64,000 nucleotides of DNA from Patescibacteria group bacterium (GTDB lineage Bacteria > Patescibacteriota > Patescibacteriia > Magasanikbacterales > GWA2-37-8). The position numbers and the translations under genes were made by a program. The stretch is from positions 1 to 64,000 of the forward strand of contig SCQK01000004.1 of assembly GCA_004321885.1 (NCBI GenBank). Reading direction: 5' to 3'. Below are positions 1,811 through 9,999 of the stretch, piece after piece; position 1 is the stretch's first letter; every line of letters begins with the position of its first letter. The notes under the pieces are model-generated. The model was not told where the DNA came from and did not search any database. It saw only the letters and a list, made by a program, of their open reading frames with translations.

Positions 1811-3889
1811 TTACTTGTATTGTTTCTTCGCCGCGTTGTAGAGCTGTTTCACCTCGGCCGCCGACAGGGCGCGGTTGTAGATACGGGCGTCGTCAAGGAA
1901 GCCATTCAATAACACTGAACTATTAGAGTTATTGCCGATTCTCAAAGTTCCACTGCTGTCTGAATTTTTTGCCGTGGCTCCAGTAATGCTTCCGTCTTGC
2001 GCGCCGTCAATATAAAAACGAGCTGACGTGCCGTCGCTATCCACTACAAAAACAACGTGATGCCACTTATTATCTGAAACAGTGGCAATTCCCACCGGTC
2101 TCACACCCATAGTGGCATTCCAAGTAAAACCATCCAATTTTCCGGAAACAATACTAAAATTATATTGTCCCCCGCCCCCGCCAGCTCCATATTTATCAAC
2201 AATAGCAGCAGCCGTGTCAGCTGTTTTAATCCACGCGGACAGTGTAAAATTGCCCACTCCCAAATGTAGAGACGCTTTATCCGTTGCCTCCACATAATCA
2301 CTCGTCCCATTAAAACTCATCGCCCCGCCTACTTTACCCGCCACTTTCGTTGGCGTGTTGGCCGAAGTGCCGTGATTTTGCTGGCCACTTTTGTCATAAA
2401 CCGTTGTCCCATTTATATCATTGCTATCCATACTCCAATACCCCACCAGACCAGTGCGCGGGGCCGCGGTGGTGTAAGTTTTTTTCGCGCTGTTATACAA
2501 TTTTTTTACTTCGGCCGCGGACAGGGCGTAGTTGTACACGCGGACGTCATCCATTAAACCAGGTTCTCTGCGGTCATCGCCACCGACTTTCAACCTATTT
2601 ATGTAAAAACCCGCATCTGAGGCAAAAGATGTGTTTTGTTGGGTGGAATAACTAATTTCTACTCCATCTAAATAAATATGTGACTGGGTATAATCGCTTT
2701 TATTAACGACAAAAGTAAATAAATGCCATTTATTATCATTGGCGATTGGCGCCACCTGGCCATATTTTTGATACGCAACATAATTCCTGGCAATGCCTAA
2801 CCCCCCACCATATAACACCATTACGCCGAGAGTCCCCGATGTTTCCGCTGATGTATTATAGAATAACATGCCGAAGTTACTACCTGAATCCAAATTATTC
2901 ATTTTACCCCAATAACTGATTGTCATTATGGATGATGACTGTAGGGTTGAAGTTACATAATCCGTCGTCCCGTTAAAACTCATTGCTCCGCCCACTTTAC
3001 CTGCCACCTTCGTAGGAGTGTTGACCGAGGCGCCGTGATTGTTTTGACCGGATTTATCATAAACAGTGGTGCTATTTATATCATTACTATCCATCGTCCA
3101 ATAGCCCACCAACTGCTTAGCGACAGTGCCGCGAGGGGCTGTGTTGGTGTAAGAAGTTTTGGCGGAATTGTATAATTGCTTCACCTCGGCCGCCGACAGG
3201 GCGCGGTTGTAGATACGGACGTCGTCAATGGAGCCATTCGTGACAGAAGTTCCATTATTATATGTTCCGATGTTTAGATTACTGTTTGAAGATGCGTTCT
3301 TGGTTGCCTGACCTCCGACAGTGCCATCCTGAACTCCGTTGATATAAACATAGGCATTGGCTCCATTGCGAACTGCCGCTACGTGATACCAAGTATTAAC
3401 TTTTAGAGGAATAGTTCCATTTAATGAACAACCACCACTATCAATAGCAAAACACATTGTATCATTTGGTGAAGTTCCATATTTCATCAGGAAGAAACCC
3501 CTCTCTCCGTCCGAATTTGAATTATATTTATCAATAAAAACATAATTGTTACCAAGAGCATTTATTTTTACCCAAGTGGACAAACTAAAATTGCCAGTGC
3601 CGAAATTATAGAGAGAACTTGTAGCCGAAACTTTATCACTCGCCCCATTAAAACTCATCGCCCCGCCCACTTTGCCCGCCACTTTCGTGGGCGTGTTGGC
3701 CGAGGTGCCGTGGTTTTGCTGGCCACTTTTGTCATAAACTTTCGTCCCGTTTATATCATTGCTATCTAAACTCCAATACCCCACCAACCCGGTGCGCGGA
3801 GCCGCGGCGTGAGCGGACGAAGACGCGAAAAACACCGCGCCGAGAAAAGCGAGAAAAACAATTGTTAAAATGTAGAACTTTTTGGTCAT
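1811..3889 (-). CDS. secreted protein with three LamG/concanavalin-A-like (Laminin_G_3 type) domains, tandem paralog 1
   Basis: 692 aa. Signal peptide MTKKFYILTIVFLAFLGAVFFASSSAHA. A ~200-aa module repeats three times, each ending ...GSIDDVRIYNRALSAAEVKQLYNSAK, which is the typical C-terminal signature of ConA-like lectin/glucanase (PF13385-like) domains. Confidence 0.85.
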   Translation of the reverse strand: MTKKFYILTIVFLAFLGAVFFASSSAHAAAPRTGLVGYWSLDSNDINGTKVYDKSGQQNHGTSANTPTKVAGKVGGAMSFNGASDKVSATSSLYNFGTGNFSLSTWVKINALGNNYVFIDKYNSNSDGERGFFLMKYGTSPNDTMCFAIDSGGCSLNGTIPLKVNTWYHVAAVRNGANAYVYINGVQDGTVGGQATKNASSNSNLNIGTYNNGTSVTNGSIDDVRIYNRALSAAEVKQLYNSAKTSYTNTAPRGTVAKQLVGYWTMDSNDINSTTVYDKSGQNNHGASVNTPTKVAGKVGGAMSFNGTTDYVTSTLQSSSIMTISYWGKMNNLDSGSNFGMLFYNTSAETSGTLGVMVLYGGGLGIARNYVAYQKYGQVAPIANDNKWHLFTFVVNKSDYTQSHIYLDGVEISYSTQQNTSFASDAGFYINRLKVGGDDRREPGLMDDVRVYNYALSAAEVKKLYNSAKKTYTTAAPRTGLVGYWSMDSNDINGTTVYDKSGQQNHGTSANTPTKVAGKVGGAMSFNGTSDYVEATDKASLHLGVGNFTLSAWIKTADTAAAIVDKYGAGGGGGQYNFSIVSGKLDGFTWNATMGVRPVGIATVSDNKWHHVVFVVDSDGTSARFYIDGAQDGSITGATAKNSDSSGTLRIGNNSNSSVLLNGFLDDARIYNRALSAAEVKQLYNAAKKQYK

Positions 3890-3916
3890 ACTATTTCACG
3901 CGTTGTGGATAAAAAC

Positions 3917-3945
3917 TTGACAATATCTCTTATATTTGCTATGCT
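3917..3945 (+). promoter_or_regulatory. sigma70-like promoter for the anti-tRNA leader transcript of cassette 1
   Basis: TTGACA at 3917-3922, 17-nt spacer, TATGCT at 3940-3945. Confidence 0.4.
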
Positions 3946-3951
3946 GTGATT

Positions 3952-7787: not shown

Positions 7788-7790
7788 ATA

Positions 7791-9935
7791 CTATTTCACA
7801 TACATCGTTTTCGCCGCGTTGTAGAGCTGTTTCACCTCGGCCGCCGACAGGGCGCGGTTGTACACGCGGACGTCGTCAATGGAGCCATTAAAATAAGCTA
7901 AATTAGAAGCTCTTCTTAACACGCCAATATCCATCGCTGTCGCGTCAACTATATCACCAAACCAATTTCCAGGATTTGCTACTTGATTTACAGTCATTGT
8001 TTGACTGATACCGTCAATATACGCGCTCCAAGCAGAACCATTAGAAATAAATACAACCTGGTGCCAATTTGTATCTTGATAAGAATTGCTGGGAGTAACA
8101 ACATCACCTTGTAGCGCTTGATTGACACGATTCCAAACTTCTAATCTTTTATTTGTTTTATCAAAATAAAAAACTAATTCATCATCATAAGAACCAGGTA
8201 CGGCAATGCTAAAAAGAGCTAAATCCGCAGACAAGCTGGCCATTTTTGTCCAGAATGCTACTGTTCCTTGTTGATTTGTTAAAAATGAGGGAGAAGTTTT
8301 TTCTATATAATCACTCGTCCCATTAAAACTCATCGCCCCGCTGATTTTCCCCGCCACTTTCGTGGGCGTGTTGGCCGAAGTGCCATGATTTCTATTGCCG
8401 CTTTTATCCCAGACATTTAATCCGCTTATATCCCCGCTGTCCATCGTCCAATACCCCACCAGCCCGCGGCGGGGGGCCGAGTTTGAGTACTTTTTTTTGA
8501 CCGCGTTGTAGAGCTGTTTCACCTCGGCCGCCGACAAGGCGCGGTTGTAGACGCGGACATCGTCAAATACAAAATCCGCTGGTTGTATGTAGCTGACCTC
8601 TTGAAAAATGCCAATCATAAAAAGATTGGCATCAGTCGCGTCATCAAACCATTGTCCAGAATTTGCGCCTGAATAAATGGTGAGCGGCAATGACATATTA
8701 TCAACATAAACGCTTATAGCAGAACCACTGGAAGTAAAAACAATATGATGCCAATTATTGTCGTTAATAGTATTATTGGGCGTCACCATATTCAACGTGA
8801 GGGCTCCATTTTGTGTTAAAATAATTTGAAAGGACTTTGAGCTGTCTCCTCTGTAATCCCAACGCAACGCATCATCAACTACTCCATTTGTCGCGATTGA
8901 GACAAATGTGCTAATAGCAGCATAAGCATTTGACCTTTTTGCCCAAAAAGAAATAGCGCCTTGCGAGTCATTTATAAAAGACGGATTGCTTTTGGTGATC
9001 CACTCCGTGCTCCCGTCAAAATTCAGCGCGTTGCCTATTTTCCCGGCCACGAGGTCGGCCGAGGTGATATTGGTGCCAGTGCCGTGGTTTTGCTGGCCGC
9101 TTTTGTCGTAGACTTTCGTGCCGTTTATATCCCCACTATCCATTGTCCACCACCCCACCAGTTGTTTGCGAACCGGGGCTTTGGTAAAGTTGCTTTTGGT
9201 GGCCTGGTATAGTTGTTTCACCTCGGCCGCCGACAGGGCGCGGTTGTACACGCGGACGTCATCAAGGGAGCCAGGGAAATATGAACCGCCATTTTCCACG
9301 CCTATTTGCAAATTTTTGCTGGAAGCAGCATTTCTGGCCGCCAACCCGCTTGCTGTGCCATCCTGCGCGCCGTTTACGTATACATAAGCATTATCGCCAT
9401 TTCTTACCGCTGCAACATGATACCATGTGTTTGCATTTAATGTAGTCGTCCCCGTGACATCAATACCACCTGAACCAACATAAAAAAGTAATTTTTGCCC
9501 CGCCCCCAAATTACGGGTATCAAATATAAACCCCATCTCACTTGCTCCGCCATTATTATATTTATCTAAAATTAAACTAATGGTGTTCCAAGTTGAGGCT
9601 TTTATCCACGCGGACAGCGTAAAATTTCCTGTCCCAAAATTAAATGACGCGCCTGGAGCTTGTAAGAACTGTGAAGAGCCGTTAAGATTCACAGCTTCCT
9701 TTATTTTCCCCGCCACAACGGTCGGACTGCCTGTTGAAGTAGCGTGATTCTTGTAACCTGATTTATCGTAATAGGTTATCCCACTCACATCCCCGCTATC
9801 CATCGTCCACCAGCCCACCAGCCCTTGGCGCGGGGCCGCGGCGTGGGCGACGTCTACCCCCCCTAGCCCCCCCTTATTAAGGGGGGGGAACGCAAAAAGC
9901 GCGCCCCAGAGAGCGACGCAAAAAACCGACAGCAT
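7791..9935 (-). CDS. secreted LamG/ConA-like triple-domain protein, tandem paralog 3
   Basis: Three modules ending ...DDVRVYNRALSAAEVKQLY(Q/N)A(T/V/A)K. Probable start is M19 (MLSVFCVALWGALFA signal peptide, ATG 9935-9933), which lies inside a half-copy of the REP element (9930-9975). The track ORF extends to 9989. Confidence 0.8.
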   Translation of the reverse strand: MLSVFCVALWGALFAFPPLNKGGLGGVDVAHAAAPRQGLVGWWTMDSGDVSGITYYDKSGYKNHATSTGSPTVVAGKIKEAVNLNGSSQFLQAPGASFNFGTGNFTLSAWIKASTWNTISLILDKYNNGGASEMGFIFDTRNLGAGQKLLFYVGSGGIDVTGTTTLNANTWYHVAAVRNGDNAYVYVNGAQDGTASGLAARNAASSKNLQIGVENGGSYFPGSLDDVRVYNRALSAAEVKQLYQATKSNFTKAPVRKQLVGWWTMDSGDINGTKVYDKSGQQNHGTGTNITSADLVAGKIGNALNFDGSTEWITKSNPSFINDSQGAISFWAKRSNAYAAISTFVSIATNGVVDDALRWDYRGDSSKSFQIILTQNGALTLNMVTPNNTINDNNWHHIVFTSSGSAISVYVDNMSLPLTIYSGANSGQWFDDATDANLFMIGIFQEVSYIQPADFVFDDVRVYNRALSAAEVKQLYNAVKKKYSNSAPRRGLVGYWTMDSGDISGLNVWDKSGNRNHGTSANTPTKVAGKISGAMSFNGTSDYIEKTSPSFLTNQQGTVAFWTKMASLSADLALFSIAVPGSYDDELVFYFDKTNKRLEVWNRVNQALQGDVVTPSNSYQDTNWHQVVFISNGSAWSAYIDGISQTMTVNQVANPGNWFGDIVDATAMDIGVLRRASNLAYFNGSIDDVRVYNRALSAAEVKQLYNAAKTMYVK

Positions 9936-9999
9936 TGTGGCTCCACGCACAGCATGGAGCCAGCGATTTTTGGAAGGTTTGCGAGACATATCACGTAAT

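What the first reader, a model, noticed from the sequence alone, without database searches (positions are those of the whole stretch)
1811..9989. Tandem array of three secreted LamG/ConA-like triple-domain proteins with start-codon remnants and a lost canonical start in the middle gene
Each of the three paralogs (692, ~681 and ~715 aa) contains three LamG-like modules with the DDVR(I/V)YNRALSAAEVKQLY signature. Fragments of their 5' ends recur in several places: the real start at 3889, and remnant starts at 4207, 4356, 7651 and 10848, all of the type ATGACCAAAAAATT.. / MTKKF or MSRKPSKNRW. Paralog 2 lacks an ATG before its signal peptide; TTG at 7351 is the nearest in-frame start. Paralog 3 takes its start codon from inside a REP half-element. 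Together these point to ongoing recombination or gene conversion in a surface-protein locus, which is typical of host-interaction or adhesin genes in episymbiotic CPR bacteria.
Basis: partly seen in the sequence, partly recalled or inferred. Interest (0 to 1): 0.55.

Follow-up and report, generated by a model that had tools for sequence, protein, structure and literature searches.

The report
LamG cluster with tRNA–antisense RNA cassettes
Three ordinary secreted lectin-like (LamG) genes of a Patescibacteria genome are separated by two duplicated non-coding cassettes, each holding a tRNA-Arg gene and a small RNA that is a scrambled antisense copy of that same tRNA; this RNA–tRNA pairing is conserved in many related bacteria and I found no description of it.

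Summary
The three minus-strand LamG genes are real: each has three Laminin_G_3 modules. Such proteins are very common in CPR bacteria. The "start-codon remnants" are also real, apart from one wrong coordinate, but they are relics of old gene junctions (…MYVK-stop, one base, ATGACCAAAAAATT). Each copy carries, on the plus strand, a tRNA-Arg gene (GCG at 4058-4131, CCG at 7514-7587).

Upstream of each tRNA lies a separately promoted and terminated ~80-nt RNA. Its blocks are exact complements of positions 4-12, 23-32 and 31-43 of its own tRNA, including a codon-like triplet opposite the anticodon. The same RNA+tRNA module occurs in at least 17 metagenomic or MAG loci. Ten of 21 intermolecular pairs show double compensatory changes, and the triplet tracks the anticodon (CGC, CGG, CGU, UCA). 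Rfam has no match.

A 28-30-nt deletion removed paralog 2's ancestral ATG. GenBank instead uses an ATG that lies antisense to the small RNA. Paralog 3's N-terminus comes from a half REP/terminator plus a G/C palindrome.

The LamG part is ordinary. The antisense-to-tRNA RNA family is the interesting result, and its function is inferred, not shown.

The parts
1811..3889 (-). LamG paralog 1 (692 aa). It has the canonical start MTKKFY and a Sec-like N-terminus ending AHA|AAP.
   Evidence: ORF. Three Laminin_G_3 stretches. Identical to GenBank TAN34008.1.
1699..1808 (.). REP-like palindromic element directly after the paralog 1 stop codon. It folds as a four-way junction.
   Evidence: 98% identical to 7681-7790. 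Core motif found 17 times in the window against 0.58 expected. Folding energy -67 kcal/mol, z -8.3.
3904..3945 (+). TGTGGATAA box (3904-3912) and the promoter of small RNA 1: TTGACA, 17 nt, TATGCT (3917-3945).
   Evidence: The position is conserved in alignment A2.
3949..4029 (+). Anti-tRNA small RNA 1. Block 1 AGGACAGUAU is anti to tRNA 23-32, block 2 AACUACAGG to 4-12, and block 3 UCUAUCUUCGCAG to 31-43 (contains codon CGC). It ends in its own terminator (4000-4020 plus a T tract).
   Evidence: Complement blocks. Terminator. Covariance model R1 gives 71.8 bits.
4031..4053 (+). The tRNA's own extended -10 promoter TGTTATACT (4031-4039), and the 5' leader block GGTGGAC (4047-4053), which is complementary to the tRNA 3' end GUCCACC.
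   Evidence: TGnTATAAT is conserved across the loci.
4058..4131 (+). tRNA-Arg(GCG) with encoded CCA. Its terminator lies at 4131-4168.
   Evidence: ARAGORN. Rfam tRNA 65 bits. Terminator.
4177..4227 (-). Junction relic: the last ~30 nt of a lost LamG gene (…EVAAKAMYVK, stop), one base, then ATGACCAAAAAATT (ATG at 4195).
   Evidence: Minus-strand reading and translation. About 96% identical to 7633-7683 over the 4174-4223 window.
4228..4320 (.). REP-like element, a shorter variant.
4321..4356 (-). Ghost LamG gene: the start ATGACCAAAAAATTCTAC fused to a ~20-nt 3'-end-like stretch that abuts the REP.
   Evidence: (repeat families D10, D12).
4358..5227 (-). Bro-N domain gene (289 aa) inserted between paralogs 1 and 2. 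Its start (ATGTCCAAAAAATTCTC) and its last codons resemble the junction box.
   Evidence: Pfam Bro-N, E 3e-9. Box family D10..
5309..7351 (-). LamG paralog 2. The body is intact, but the ancestral ATG and about six codons are deleted. Candidate starts are TTG 7351, ATG 7441 (GenBank) and ATG 7651.
7356..7398 (+). TGTGGACAA box (7356-7364) and the promoter of small RNA 2: TTGACA at 7370-7375, TGnTACCCT ending at 7398.
7403..7484 (+). Anti-tRNA small RNA 2. Its blocks are AGGAUGCUGU, AACUACGGG and UUCAUCUUCGGA (contains codon CGG), each complementary to tRNA-Arg(CCG). It has its own terminator.
   Evidence: Model R1 gives 87.5 bits.
7486..7619 (+). Extended -10 promoter TGCTATAAT (7486-7494), leader block GGTGGAC (7502-7508), tRNA-Arg(CCG) at 7514-7587 with CCA, and terminator at 7592-7619.
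7633..7683 (-). Junction relic, copy 2 (…EVAAKVMYVK, stop, T, ATGACCAAAAAATT; ATG at 7651).
7681..7790 (.). REP-like element directly after the paralog 3 stop codon.
7791..9989 (-). LamG paralog 3 (732-aa ORF). Similarity to paralogs 1 and 2 begins only at AHAAAP.
9858..9989 (-). Repeat-derived N-terminus of paralog 3: a half REP with a terminator-like hairpin and T tract (9894-9989, codons 1-32), then a G/C palindrome (9858-9893, coding PPLNKGGLGG).
10753..10848 (-). Second copy of the half REP/terminator (99% identical), upstream of the DUF3800 gene. It is the source of the MSRKPSKNRW remnant ORF.

Best explanation
The locus is a cluster of three diverged genes for secreted triple-LamG (concanavalin-A-like lectin) proteins. 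It descends from a tightly packed tandem array in which each stop codon was followed, after one base, by the next ATG (…MYVK-stop-T-ATGACCAAAAAATT).

The "start-codon remnants" are relics of those junctions. They survive where gene bodies were deleted or replaced. They now flank two copies of a ~590-nt cassette that was duplicated or gene-converted together with the first ~50 codons of the downstream LamG gene.

On the opposite strand each cassette carries a complete tRNA-Arg transcription unit: an extended -10 promoter, a GGUGGAC leader, the tRNA with encoded CCA, and a terminator. Just upstream of it lies a separate ~80-nt RNA gene with a TTGACA/-10 promoter, often a TGTGGATAA box, and its own terminator. 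That RNA is a permuted antisense copy of its neighbour tRNA: [anti 32→4][anti 43→32].

A 28-30-nt deletion in copy 2 removed paralog 2's start codon. Paralog 3's N-terminus was assembled from a half REP/terminator and a G/C palindrome.

Shown: the anatomy, the homology between the cassettes, the conservation of the RNA+tRNA module, and its covariation.

Inferred: the small RNA acts in trans on its cognate tRNA. Its single-stranded codon-like CGCA tail, lying just 3' of a stem made from the two anti-anticodon-stem strands, would dock on the anticodon loop. Strand exchange would then give about 10 + 12 intermolecular base pairs that unfold the anticodon arm. This would hold the tRNA out of translation, or control its maturation or turnover.
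For: Anatomy:
- tRNA genes.
- Cassette alignment.
- Junction relics and ghost gene read on the minus strand.
- Box statistics and REP statistics and fold.

Cognate specificity within the window:
- 32 and 31 nt lie in exact complementary words of at least 8 nt, reached by 0 of 2000 shuffles. Cross pairs give words of 7 nt at most.
- Cofolding gives ddG about -14 kcal/mol for cognate pairs against -2 and -5 for cross pairs.

Conservation:
- The same architecture is found in a Ca. Uhrbacteria MAG.
- It is present at all 14 tRNA-Arg(GCG) loci recovered with a pattern that did not include the small RNA.

Covariation:
- 95.6% of cells are paired.
- 10 of 21 intermolecular pairs have changes on both sides.
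- 0 of 500 shuffles reach this, and slid controls give only 35-49% paired.
- The complement follows each tRNA strand even where the tRNA's own anticodon stem is mismatched.

Triplet tracks anticodon: CGC/GCG, CGG/CCG, CGU/ACG and UCA/UGA.

Independent transcription unit:
- A conserved promoter, and a terminator stem with many compensatory pairs.
- 50-90-nt insertions between the RNA and the tRNA promoter in four loci.
- In L017 the RNA lies downstream of its tRNA.

Strand: G·U outnumbers A·C by 18 to 6 inside the complementary stretches.

Controls: tRNA-Ile and tRNA-Leu of the window have no such complement.

Not catalogued: no Rfam hit at E ≤ 1.
Against: - There are no expression data, so the promoters, terminators and the RNA itself are predictions from a MAG.
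- The order of evolutionary events cannot be fixed. It could be insertion with duplication of the box, or deletion of gene bodies between junctions.
- All three blocks cannot pair at once in one simple coaxial duplex, because the antisense is permuted. The strand-exchange geometry is my inference.
- Mature, modified tRNA is very stable and may resist invasion.
- The metagenome pattern required the GGTGGAC leader and the tRNA 5' end, so conservation of those two features is ascertained, not tested.
- The sequences are related, so the counts are not independent events.
- The function of the LamG proteins, and the true starts of paralogs 2 and 3, remain untested.
Confidence: 0.7

Rival explanations
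1. One reading: the remnants are debris of ongoing gene conversion or recombination among adhesin paralogs, and nothing else is encoded between them.
For: LamG genes show mosaic identity. Exact tracts of 35-67 nt lie at the module ends. The two linkers inside paralog 2 are 88% identical over 279 nt. The 5' ends of paralogs 1 and 2 reach 92% identity.
Against: The intervals hold two high-scoring tRNA-Arg genes, conserved small-RNA genes, a Bro-N gene and REP copies. The remnants sit exactly at the edges of these cassettes, and each includes a 3'-end relic plus a start. The same RNA+tRNA cassette occurs elsewhere without any LamG gene.
Confidence: 0.2
2. Paralog 2, and possibly paralog 3, are young pseudogenes. 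Their native starts or signal peptides are gone and the ORFs are open only because decay is recent.
For: - The ancestral ATG of paralog 2 is deleted.
- The genome hardly uses Shine-Dalgarno sequences (1 of 35 ORFs), and many ATGs sit just after -10-like boxes. A TTG start at 7351 is therefore unlikely.
- The ATGs at 7441 and 7651 lie antisense to strongly promoted RNA genes.
- Paralog 3's N-terminus is a terminator-like repeat.
Against: Both bodies (680 and about 680 codons) have no stop codon or frameshift and keep all nine module motifs. From ATG 7441 the N-terminus has a Lys-rich region before the hydrophobic core, so a long signal peptide is possible. GenBank annotates both as intact.
Confidence: 0.3
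3. The complementary leader works in cis, not as a free small RNA. Read-through of its terminator would give a precursor in which the leader holds the tRNA misfolded, acting as a processing or quality checkpoint. Alternatively, mature tRNA binding the nascent leader would tune termination, giving T-box-like autoregulation of the tRNA gene.
For: - The leader and the tRNA are on the same strand and adjacent in 16 of 17 complete modules.
- The minimum-energy fold of leader plus tRNA pairs block 3 with the anticodon arm instead of forming a cloverleaf.
- A codon-like triplet followed by A, and a block complementary to the tRNA 3' end, recall the T-box specifier and T-box bulge.
Against: - The terminator is strong and covarying, and the tRNA has its own conserved TGnTATAAT promoter.
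- Four loci have 50-90-nt inserts between the two units.
- In L017 the RNA lies downstream of the tRNA's terminator and is followed by a second mini antisense RNA instead of a tRNA.
- I saw no antiterminator alternative, and there is no T-box Rfam hit.
Confidence: 0.25
4. The complementarity is not selected at RNA level. It would be a relic of an inverted partial duplication of the tRNA gene kept complementary by template-switch (quasi-palindrome) correction, or it would serve as a DNA hairpin or cruciform site.
For: The blocks are short inverted repeats within about 100 bp of their partner, which is the kind of substrate on which template switching acts. With only sequence data, DNA-level and RNA-level pairing cannot be fully separated.
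Against: - The permuted block order is the same across diverged lineages.
- The element has a consensus promoter, a covarying terminator and a conserved A-rich linker.
- Non-Watson-Crick positions are biased to G·U on the transcribed strand, 18 to 6.
- In L017 the element is on the other side of the tRNA, yet still complementary.
Confidence: 0.08
5. The remnants are assembly collapse or chimera artefacts of a metagenome-assembled genome.
For: The source is a MAG contig, and repeats can mislead assemblers.
Against: The two cassettes differ at about 18% of aligned positions overall. The differences are coordinated between tRNA and leader, which a collapse artefact would not produce. The relics are short, diverged and in consistent order. 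The NCBI record carries the same three proteins.
Confidence: 0.03

Closest known systems
Multi-module LamG / Laminin_G_3 (PF13385) secreted proteins of CPR/Patescibacteria
   Same: Each protein has three Laminin_G_3 modules in about 700 aa and an N-terminal hydrophobic leader. More than 2100 homologues have E<1e-20, in ~700-aa (3-module) and ~1150-aa (5-module) forms, from Giovannoni-, Taylor-, Wolfe- and Moranbacteria and others.
   Different: Nothing essential differs. The best hits outside this genome are only 34-39% identical, so the family evolves fast. There is weak sequence similarity to an S-layer-domain protein (4qvs) and to the tetanus toxin Hc lectin domain.
REP/BIME elements, and Rickettsia palindromic elements (RPE) that insert in frame into genes (from memory)
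   Same: A dispersed ~110-nt imperfect palindrome with at least 9 copies in 64 kb. It mostly lies just after stop codons and has a very stable fold. A half copy plus a G/C palindrome is translated as the N-terminus of paralog 3, as RPEs are.
   Different: It has a four-way-junction architecture with four alternating GGCTCCA/TGGAGCC arms. No RAYT transposase was looked for. Translation of the inserted copy is not shown.
T-box riboswitch (Rfam RF00230)
   Same: An RNA that reads a specific tRNA through a codon-like triplet followed by A, opposite the anticodon. There is a separate stretch complementary to the tRNA 3' end, and a terminator next to it.
   Different: There is no Rfam hit, and I recognised no Stem I platform or antiterminator. 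Complementarity extends over about 30 nt, into the anticodon stem, D arm and acceptor. The neighbouring gene is the tRNA itself, not an aminoacyl-tRNA synthetase gene. The 3'-end complement lies in the tRNA's own 5' leader.
Kissing-loop antisense RNAs (CopA/CopT, RNA I/RNA II) and base-pairing small RNAs with intrinsic terminators (from memory)
   Same: A short, structured, separately transcribed RNA with a terminator. It has extended complementarity to one target, and initiation by a single-stranded seed followed by helix propagation is plausible.
   Different: The target is a tRNA body. The RNA is encoded next to its target, not opposite it. The antisense is circularly permuted.
tRNA-precursor-derived sponge 3'ETS-leuZ of E. 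coli (from memory)
   Same: A small RNA linked to a tRNA transcription unit that acts by base pairing.
   Different: 3'ETS-leuZ pairs with other small RNAs, not with the tRNA. It is a processing product and has no promoter of its own.

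Membership tests
Laminin_G_3 / ConA-like lectin (PF13385) | Profile match above the Pfam gathering score, once per module | tested here: met
   231-294 bits against a cut-off of 27.6, with three stretches in each of the three proteins.
Secreted (Sec) protein | N-terminal signal peptide: a charged n-region, a hydrophobic core and an AxA cleavage site | tested here: inconclusive
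   Judged by eye only. Paralog 1 (MTKKFYILTIVFLAFLGAVFFASSSAHA|AAP) fits. Paralog 2 depends on which start is used. Paralog 3 has a 16-residue spacer before AHA. No predictor was available.
REP-type dispersed palindromic element | Many dispersed copies of an imperfect palindrome with a stable fold, mainly extragenic | tested here: met
   17 motif matches against 0.58 expected. Copies lie at 1699, 4228, 7681, 26309, 36352, 36445 and 41584, plus two half copies. z -8.3.
REP-type dispersed palindromic element | Associated RAYT/IS200-like transposase | not tested
   Not searched.
tRNA-Arg | Cloverleaf with an Arg anticodon | tested here: met
   ARAGORN calls GCG and CCG. Rfam tRNA scores are 65.4 and 63.9 bits.
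T-box riboswitch | Match to the family covariance model | tested here: not met
   No RF00230 hit at E ≤ 1 in 1-11500.
T-box riboswitch | Specifier triplet matching the anticodon of one tRNA | tested here: met
   CGC/GCG, CGG/CCG, CGU/ACG and UCA/UGA, always followed by A.
T-box riboswitch | Mutually exclusive terminator and antiterminator, with a UGGN bulge that pairs with NCCA, controlling a downstream amino-acid-related gene | tested here: not met
   No alternative pairing with the terminator's 5' strand was seen in the alignment. The GGUGGAC block lies after the terminator. The downstream gene is the tRNA.
Trans-acting base-pairing small RNA | Own promoter and intrinsic terminator | tested here: met
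   TTGACA-17-TAnnnT is conserved in the alignments. The terminator stem has compensatory changes in 10 of its pairs (11 of the 24 predicted pairs overall). Sequence evidence only.
Trans-acting base-pairing small RNA | Complementarity to the target maintained by compensatory change | tested here: met
   10 of 21 pairs changed on both sides, 95.6% paired, 0 of 500 shuffles.
Trans-acting base-pairing small RNA | The transcript exists and binds its target | not testable with these tools
   Needs RNA-seq or Northern blots, and binding assays.
Pseudogene (paralog 2) | Disabling lesion in the reading frame | tested here: not met
   The ORF is open for 780 codons and all motifs are kept. Only the ancestral start is lost.

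The most novel reading that the evidence does not exclude
A clade of Patescibacteria encodes, next to certain tRNA and tRNA-like genes, a dedicated small RNA that recognises that tRNA by a codon-like triplet. It then invades the anticodon stem (about 22 bp) and the D/acceptor region. This would be a previously undescribed class of anti-tRNA riboregulator that titrates, silences or gates the maturation of one tRNA species. The partners with aberrant 9-nt anticodon loops could be decoys, or one half of an RNA-RNA toxin/antitoxin-like pair.
Probability: 0.4. Interest if true: 0.85.

Novelty: new variant of a known kind. Interest (0 to 1): 0.68.

Why it matters
The LamG part matters little. It is one more fast-evolving, repeat-ridden cluster of lectin-like secreted proteins in a CPR genome. 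It is also a caution that its annotated N-termini (TAN34010.1, TAN34011.1) are built from the antisense of RNA genes and from repeats.

The RNA part could matter. Bacteria are known to read tRNAs with T-box leaders, and to regulate mRNAs with antisense RNAs. I know of no small RNA family whose conserved, covarying target is the body of its neighbouring tRNA, and I found none in Rfam 15 or in four full-text searches.

If it acts as inferred, it would be a simple RNA-only way to control the supply of one decoder, tRNA-Arg for CGY/CGG codons. This would occur in organisms with very small regulatory repertoires. It is directly testable with two in-vitro transcripts.

Tried and rejected
- Exact-protein look-ups of paralog 1, the Bro-N protein and P0003 found no contig. 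The DUF3800 protein gave only a 1.1-kb Logan contig. No strain comparison of the locus was therefore possible.
- A viral scan with the tRNA 5' half found five unrelated phage tRNAs.
- Viral scans with 14-15-nt module patterns hit only by chance. Model R1 found no small RNA in the 80 loci from the small-RNA pattern; the loci from the promoter/leader pattern were not searched. I therefore have no evidence for a phage origin.
- Gene neighbourhoods of the module differ between loci: a HicB-like ORF in L007, PNPase in L025, unrelated ORFs in L039. No associated protein was identified.
- T-box membership was rejected: no model hit and no antiterminator.
- A splint for repair of a cleaved anticodon loop was considered and rejected, because the block order is the reverse of what a splint needs.
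- A box C/D-like guide was considered, but no conserved C/D boxes are present.
- L049 was checked for a tRNA intron. The tRNA is instead truncated after position ~24 by inserted nucleotidyltransferase/HEPN- and HicAB-like cassettes, as read by eye.
- Four literature searches found nothing comparable.

Full report
**1. Observation**

The minus strand carries three long ORFs: 1811-3889 (692 aa), 5309-7651 (780-aa ORF) and 7791-9989 (732 aa). Each has three Pfam Laminin_G_3 stretches, at 231-294 bits. All nine modules end with the DDxRxYNRALSAAEVKQLY motif.

The ATGACCAAAAA(A/G)TT box is present at 3889, 4195, 4356 and 7651. That is four matches to a 21-mer against 0.02 expected. A weaker copy sits at the Bro-N start, 5212. 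The MSRKPSKNRW start lies in a 96-nt repeat, 9894-9989 and 10753-10848, 99% identical.

It leaves out what lies between the genes:
- two plus-strand tRNA-Arg genes, 4058-4131 (GCG) and 7514-7587 (CCG);
- a Bro-N gene, 4358-5227;
- copies of a dispersed palindromic element.

**2. What the remnants are**

Aligning 3840-4370 with 7300-7800 shows one homologous cassette of about 590 nt, at 3729-4320 and 7209-7790. Nucleotide identity is 92% over the signal-peptide codons. It is 68-82% over the small-RNA and tRNA 5' part. It is 92-96% from the tRNA 3' half to the junction relic, and 70-76% over the REP. The adjoining LamG bodies are only about 50-58% identical in nucleotides and 35-66% in amino acids.

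Read on the minus strand, the stretch after each REP is "…EVAAK(V/A)MYVK, stop, T, ATGACCAAAAAATT". This is the last ~30 nt of a LamG gene, one base, and the start of the next. Intact paralogs 2 and 3 end in …MYVK, stop. The paralog 1 start is preceded by GTGAAATAG-T, a shorter relic of the same kind.

Positions 4321-4356 are a ghost gene. The start ATGACCAAAAAATTCTAC is fused to a ~20-nt stretch homologous to the paralog 1 3' end, followed by a REP exactly as in paralog 1 (families D10/D12). The Bro-N gene begins and ends in box-like sequence.

The remnants therefore mark old junctions of a tightly packed array, into which cassettes were inserted or from which gene bodies were deleted.

In cassette 2, 28-30 nt including the ATG and about six codons of paralog 2 are missing. 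The long upstream ORF extension to 7651 is the antisense of tRNA-Arg(CCG) and its leader.

**3. The starts of paralogs 2 and 3**

Only 1 of 35 long ORFs in the window has a Shine-Dalgarno-like motif. Many ATGs lie just downstream of TATAAT-like boxes. Initiation is therefore probably leaderless or SD-independent, which makes TTG 7351 a weak candidate. GenBank (TAN34010.1) uses ATG 7441, giving 710 aa with a Lys-rich stretch before the hydrophobic core. That ATG lies antisense to small RNA 2.

Paralog 3's codons 1-32 are the half REP, which contains a terminator-like hairpin and a T tract. They are followed by a G/C palindrome coding PPLNKGGLGG. Similarity to the other paralogs starts only at AHAAAP.

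Both genes are otherwise intact. Whether they are expressed cannot be decided here.

**4. The LamG family**

A database search found the three proteins in an NCBI "Patescibacteria group bacterium" MAG (contig 86,683 bp) and more than 2100 homologues across CPR lineages. The best non-self identity is 34-39%. By sequence, the nearest solved structures are an S-layer-domain protein and the tetanus toxin Hc lectin domain. NCBIfam gives only a sub-threshold TafC match.

This is an ordinary, fast-evolving family. An adhesin role is plausible but untested.

**5. The cassette: a tRNA and its antisense RNA**

Upstream of each tRNA-Arg, on the same strand, the elements run in this order:
- a TGTGGA(T/C)AA box;
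- a TTGACA-17-TAnnnT promoter;
- an ~80-nt stretch ending in a G+C hairpin and a T tract;
- an extended -10 box (TGnTATAMT);
- GGTGGAC;
- the tRNA with encoded CCA, 2-5 nt further on, followed by a terminator.

The ~80-nt stretch contains three exact complements of its own tRNA:
- anti 23-32 (AGGACAGTAT in copy 1, AGGATGCTGT in copy 2);
- anti 4-12 (AACTACAGG / AACTACGGG);
- anti 31-43 (TCTATCTTCGCAG / TTCATCTTCGGA).

GGTGGAC is complementary to the 3' end, GUCCACC. Every difference between the two tRNAs in these segments is mirrored in the leader, including the anticodon (GCG versus CCG). The totals are 32 and 31 nt in words of at least 8 nt, reached by 0 of 2000 shuffles, while cross pairs share words of 7 nt at most. 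Cofolding gives ddG of about -14 kcal/mol for cognate pairs against -2 and -5 for cross pairs.

tRNA-Ile and tRNA-Leu of the window have no such upstream complement, and they do not encode CCA. Rfam has no family matching the leader at E ≤ 1.

**6. Conservation elsewhere**

A genome scan found the module in a Ca. Uhrbacteria MAG, locus L007. No LamG gene is nearby; a HicB-like ORF lies upstream.

A metagenome scan used a pattern containing only GGTGGAC and the first 12 nt of the tRNA. It returned 42 loci, of which 15 have tRNA-Arg at the match. All 14 GCG loci carry the leader RNA.

In every locus, blocks 1 and 3 are perfectly complementary to the local tRNA, although the anticodon-stem sequence varies through at least eight haplotypes. 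This holds even at positions where the tRNA's own stem is mismatched. The only departures inside these two blocks are G·U pairs.

On a gap-free alignment of 14 distinct modules:
- 95.6% of cells are paired;
- 10 of 21 intermolecular pairs have changes on both sides;
- 0 of 500 shuffles reach the observed values;
- sliding the partner by 1-3 columns drops pairing to 35-49%.

**7. The RNA's own fold**

The consensus fold has four parts. The first is a stem made from the two anti-anticodon-stem strands (AGGAY/RUCUU). The second is an inner hairpin. The third is a single-stranded CGCA-AAAUAAA tail. The fourth is a terminator whose stem shows many compensatory changes.

A covariance model (R1) recovers all modules at 67-98 bits. 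It also finds four more:
- **L017.** The RNA lies downstream of tRNA-Arg(ACG) and carries CGU and matching blocks. It is followed by a second mini RNA with a 14-nt complement.
- **L036.** The partner is a tRNA-like gene with anticodon loop CUUGAGA. The RNA carries UCA.
- **L027.** The partner has a 9-nt anticodon loop.
- **L049.** The tRNA is truncated by inserted cassettes.

Across 19 modules, G·U outnumbers A·C by 18 to 6 inside the complementary stretches. This favours pairing of the plus-strand RNAs.

Gene neighbourhoods differ between loci, so the module travels with the tRNA, not with the LamG genes.

**8. Mechanism (inferred)**

Three things point to a trans-acting RNA. It has its own promoter and a covarying terminator. 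It can be separated from the tRNA promoter by 50-90 nt. In L017 it lies on the other side of the tRNA.

The block order [anti 32→4][anti 43→32] is a circular permutation of a plain antisense. It places the complement of the anticodon loop as a free 3' tail next to a stem formed by the two anti-stem strands.

I propose that the tail docks on the anticodon loop through the codon-like triplet plus flanking bases. Strand exchange then converts the two 5-bp hairpin stems into two intermolecular helices of about 10 and 12 bp. The far ends of these helices are bridged by the RNA's inner hairpin and by the tRNA body. This would take the tRNA out of use, or gate its maturation.

The main rival is a cis model, in which a read-through precursor is kept misfolded or termination is autoregulated. 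The minimum-energy fold of leader plus tRNA supports it, but L017 and the insertions argue against it. A purely mutational or DNA-level origin is unlikely given the promoter, the terminator and the G·U bias.

Four text searches and the paper that described the DUF3800 RNAs gave no precedent. The viral loci tested contain no copy.

**9. Verdict**

The LamG cluster is a new member of a known kind and of low interest. Its paralogs 2 and 3 have doubtful 5' ends.

The embedded antisense-to-tRNA RNA family is well supported as a conserved, covarying element. I found no description of it. Its function is inferred.

Noticed in passing
window 20107-19873, minus strand: A third module of the same architecture. 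It has a TGTGGATAA box, a TTGACA-17-TATAGT promoter, an ~80-nt RNA with a terminator, TGTGATATACT, CGGTGGAA, and then a 74-nt tRNA-like gene (19946-19873) ending in CCA. That gene has G3·U70 and A73, which are Ala identity features (from memory), and an aberrant anticodon arm (loop CAUUGCCAU). ARAGORN does not call it, and Rfam gives only weak hits. The RNA carries complements to positions 31-41 (11 nt), 12-18 and 48-54, here in plain antisense order.
   Followed up: partly
window 1403, 3904, 7356, 13376 (+) and 20099 (-); also most module loci (alignment A2): TGTGGAYAA is the reverse complement of the E. coli DnaA-box consensus TTATCCACA (from memory). It occurs 5 times against 0.7 expected. 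In four of the five places it lies 5-16 nt upstream of a TTGACA -35 of a small-RNA promoter. It is conserved in about 12 of 20 modules, sometimes inverted. It may be a regulator binding site.
   Followed up: partly
window 1427-1525 (+) and 10000-10140 (+): Two further consensus promoters (TTGACA-17-TAATAT and TTGACA-17-TATTCT) drive short plus-strand RNAs. The second has a clear terminator at 10116-10136. Each lies next to a DUF3800 gene (749-1324 and 10158-10719, minus strand). Neither has an Rfam hit at E ≤ 1. They may be new DUF3800-associated RNAs of the kind described in PMC5737381. A DUF3800-II RNA is at 61251-61314.
   Followed up: no
L017 1-240, minus strand: After the anti-tRNA-Arg(ACG) RNA, a TGATATAAT promoter drives a second, shorter RNA instead of a tRNA. 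This RNA has a perfect 14-nt complement to the anticodon loop and 3' stem (ACGUCUUCGUAGGA) and its own terminator.
   Followed up: partly
L027 7921-8005 and L036 2158-2075: Some module partners are not normal tRNAs. L027 has a 9-nt anticodon loop (CAUUAGCAC) and T loop UGCAAGU. L036 has loop CUUGAGA, T loop CGCACAU and no CCA. ARAGORN calls neither. They may be decoys or non-translational tRNA-like RNAs.
   Followed up: partly
window 9858-9893, 12691-12800, 28516-28553, 34483-34520, 49517-49554, 63902-63939: A second repeat family: G/C-rich palindromes of the type CCCCCTTATTAAGGGGG. Several lie inside ORFs in frame, read as PPL(I/N)xGxG (paralog 3; the 659-aa ORF 11346-13325).
   Followed up: no
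whole window: Only 1 of 35 long ORFs has a Shine-Dalgarno-like motif. Many start codons sit a few bases after TATAAT-like boxes, suggesting widespread leaderless or SD-independent initiation.
   Followed up: partly
window 5228-5308: An 80-nt near-perfect hairpin (-35 kcal/mol, z -5.1) fills the gap between the paralog 2 stop codon and the Bro-N start. It has a spurious weak mir-1010 hit.
   Followed up: no
L049 6180-7600: The module tRNA is truncated after about 24 nt by inserted cassettes. By eye these encode a nucleotidyltransferase/HEPN-like pair and a HicA/HicB-like pair. The small RNA upstream is intact.
   Followed up: partly
window 13469-13580, 22048-22152, 31152-31256, 31989-32093: AT-rich repeats with a CCAAT/TTGAC-type periodic pattern (AATTTCCAATTTCCAATCAAT…) recur in intergenic regions in both orientations.
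   Followed up: no
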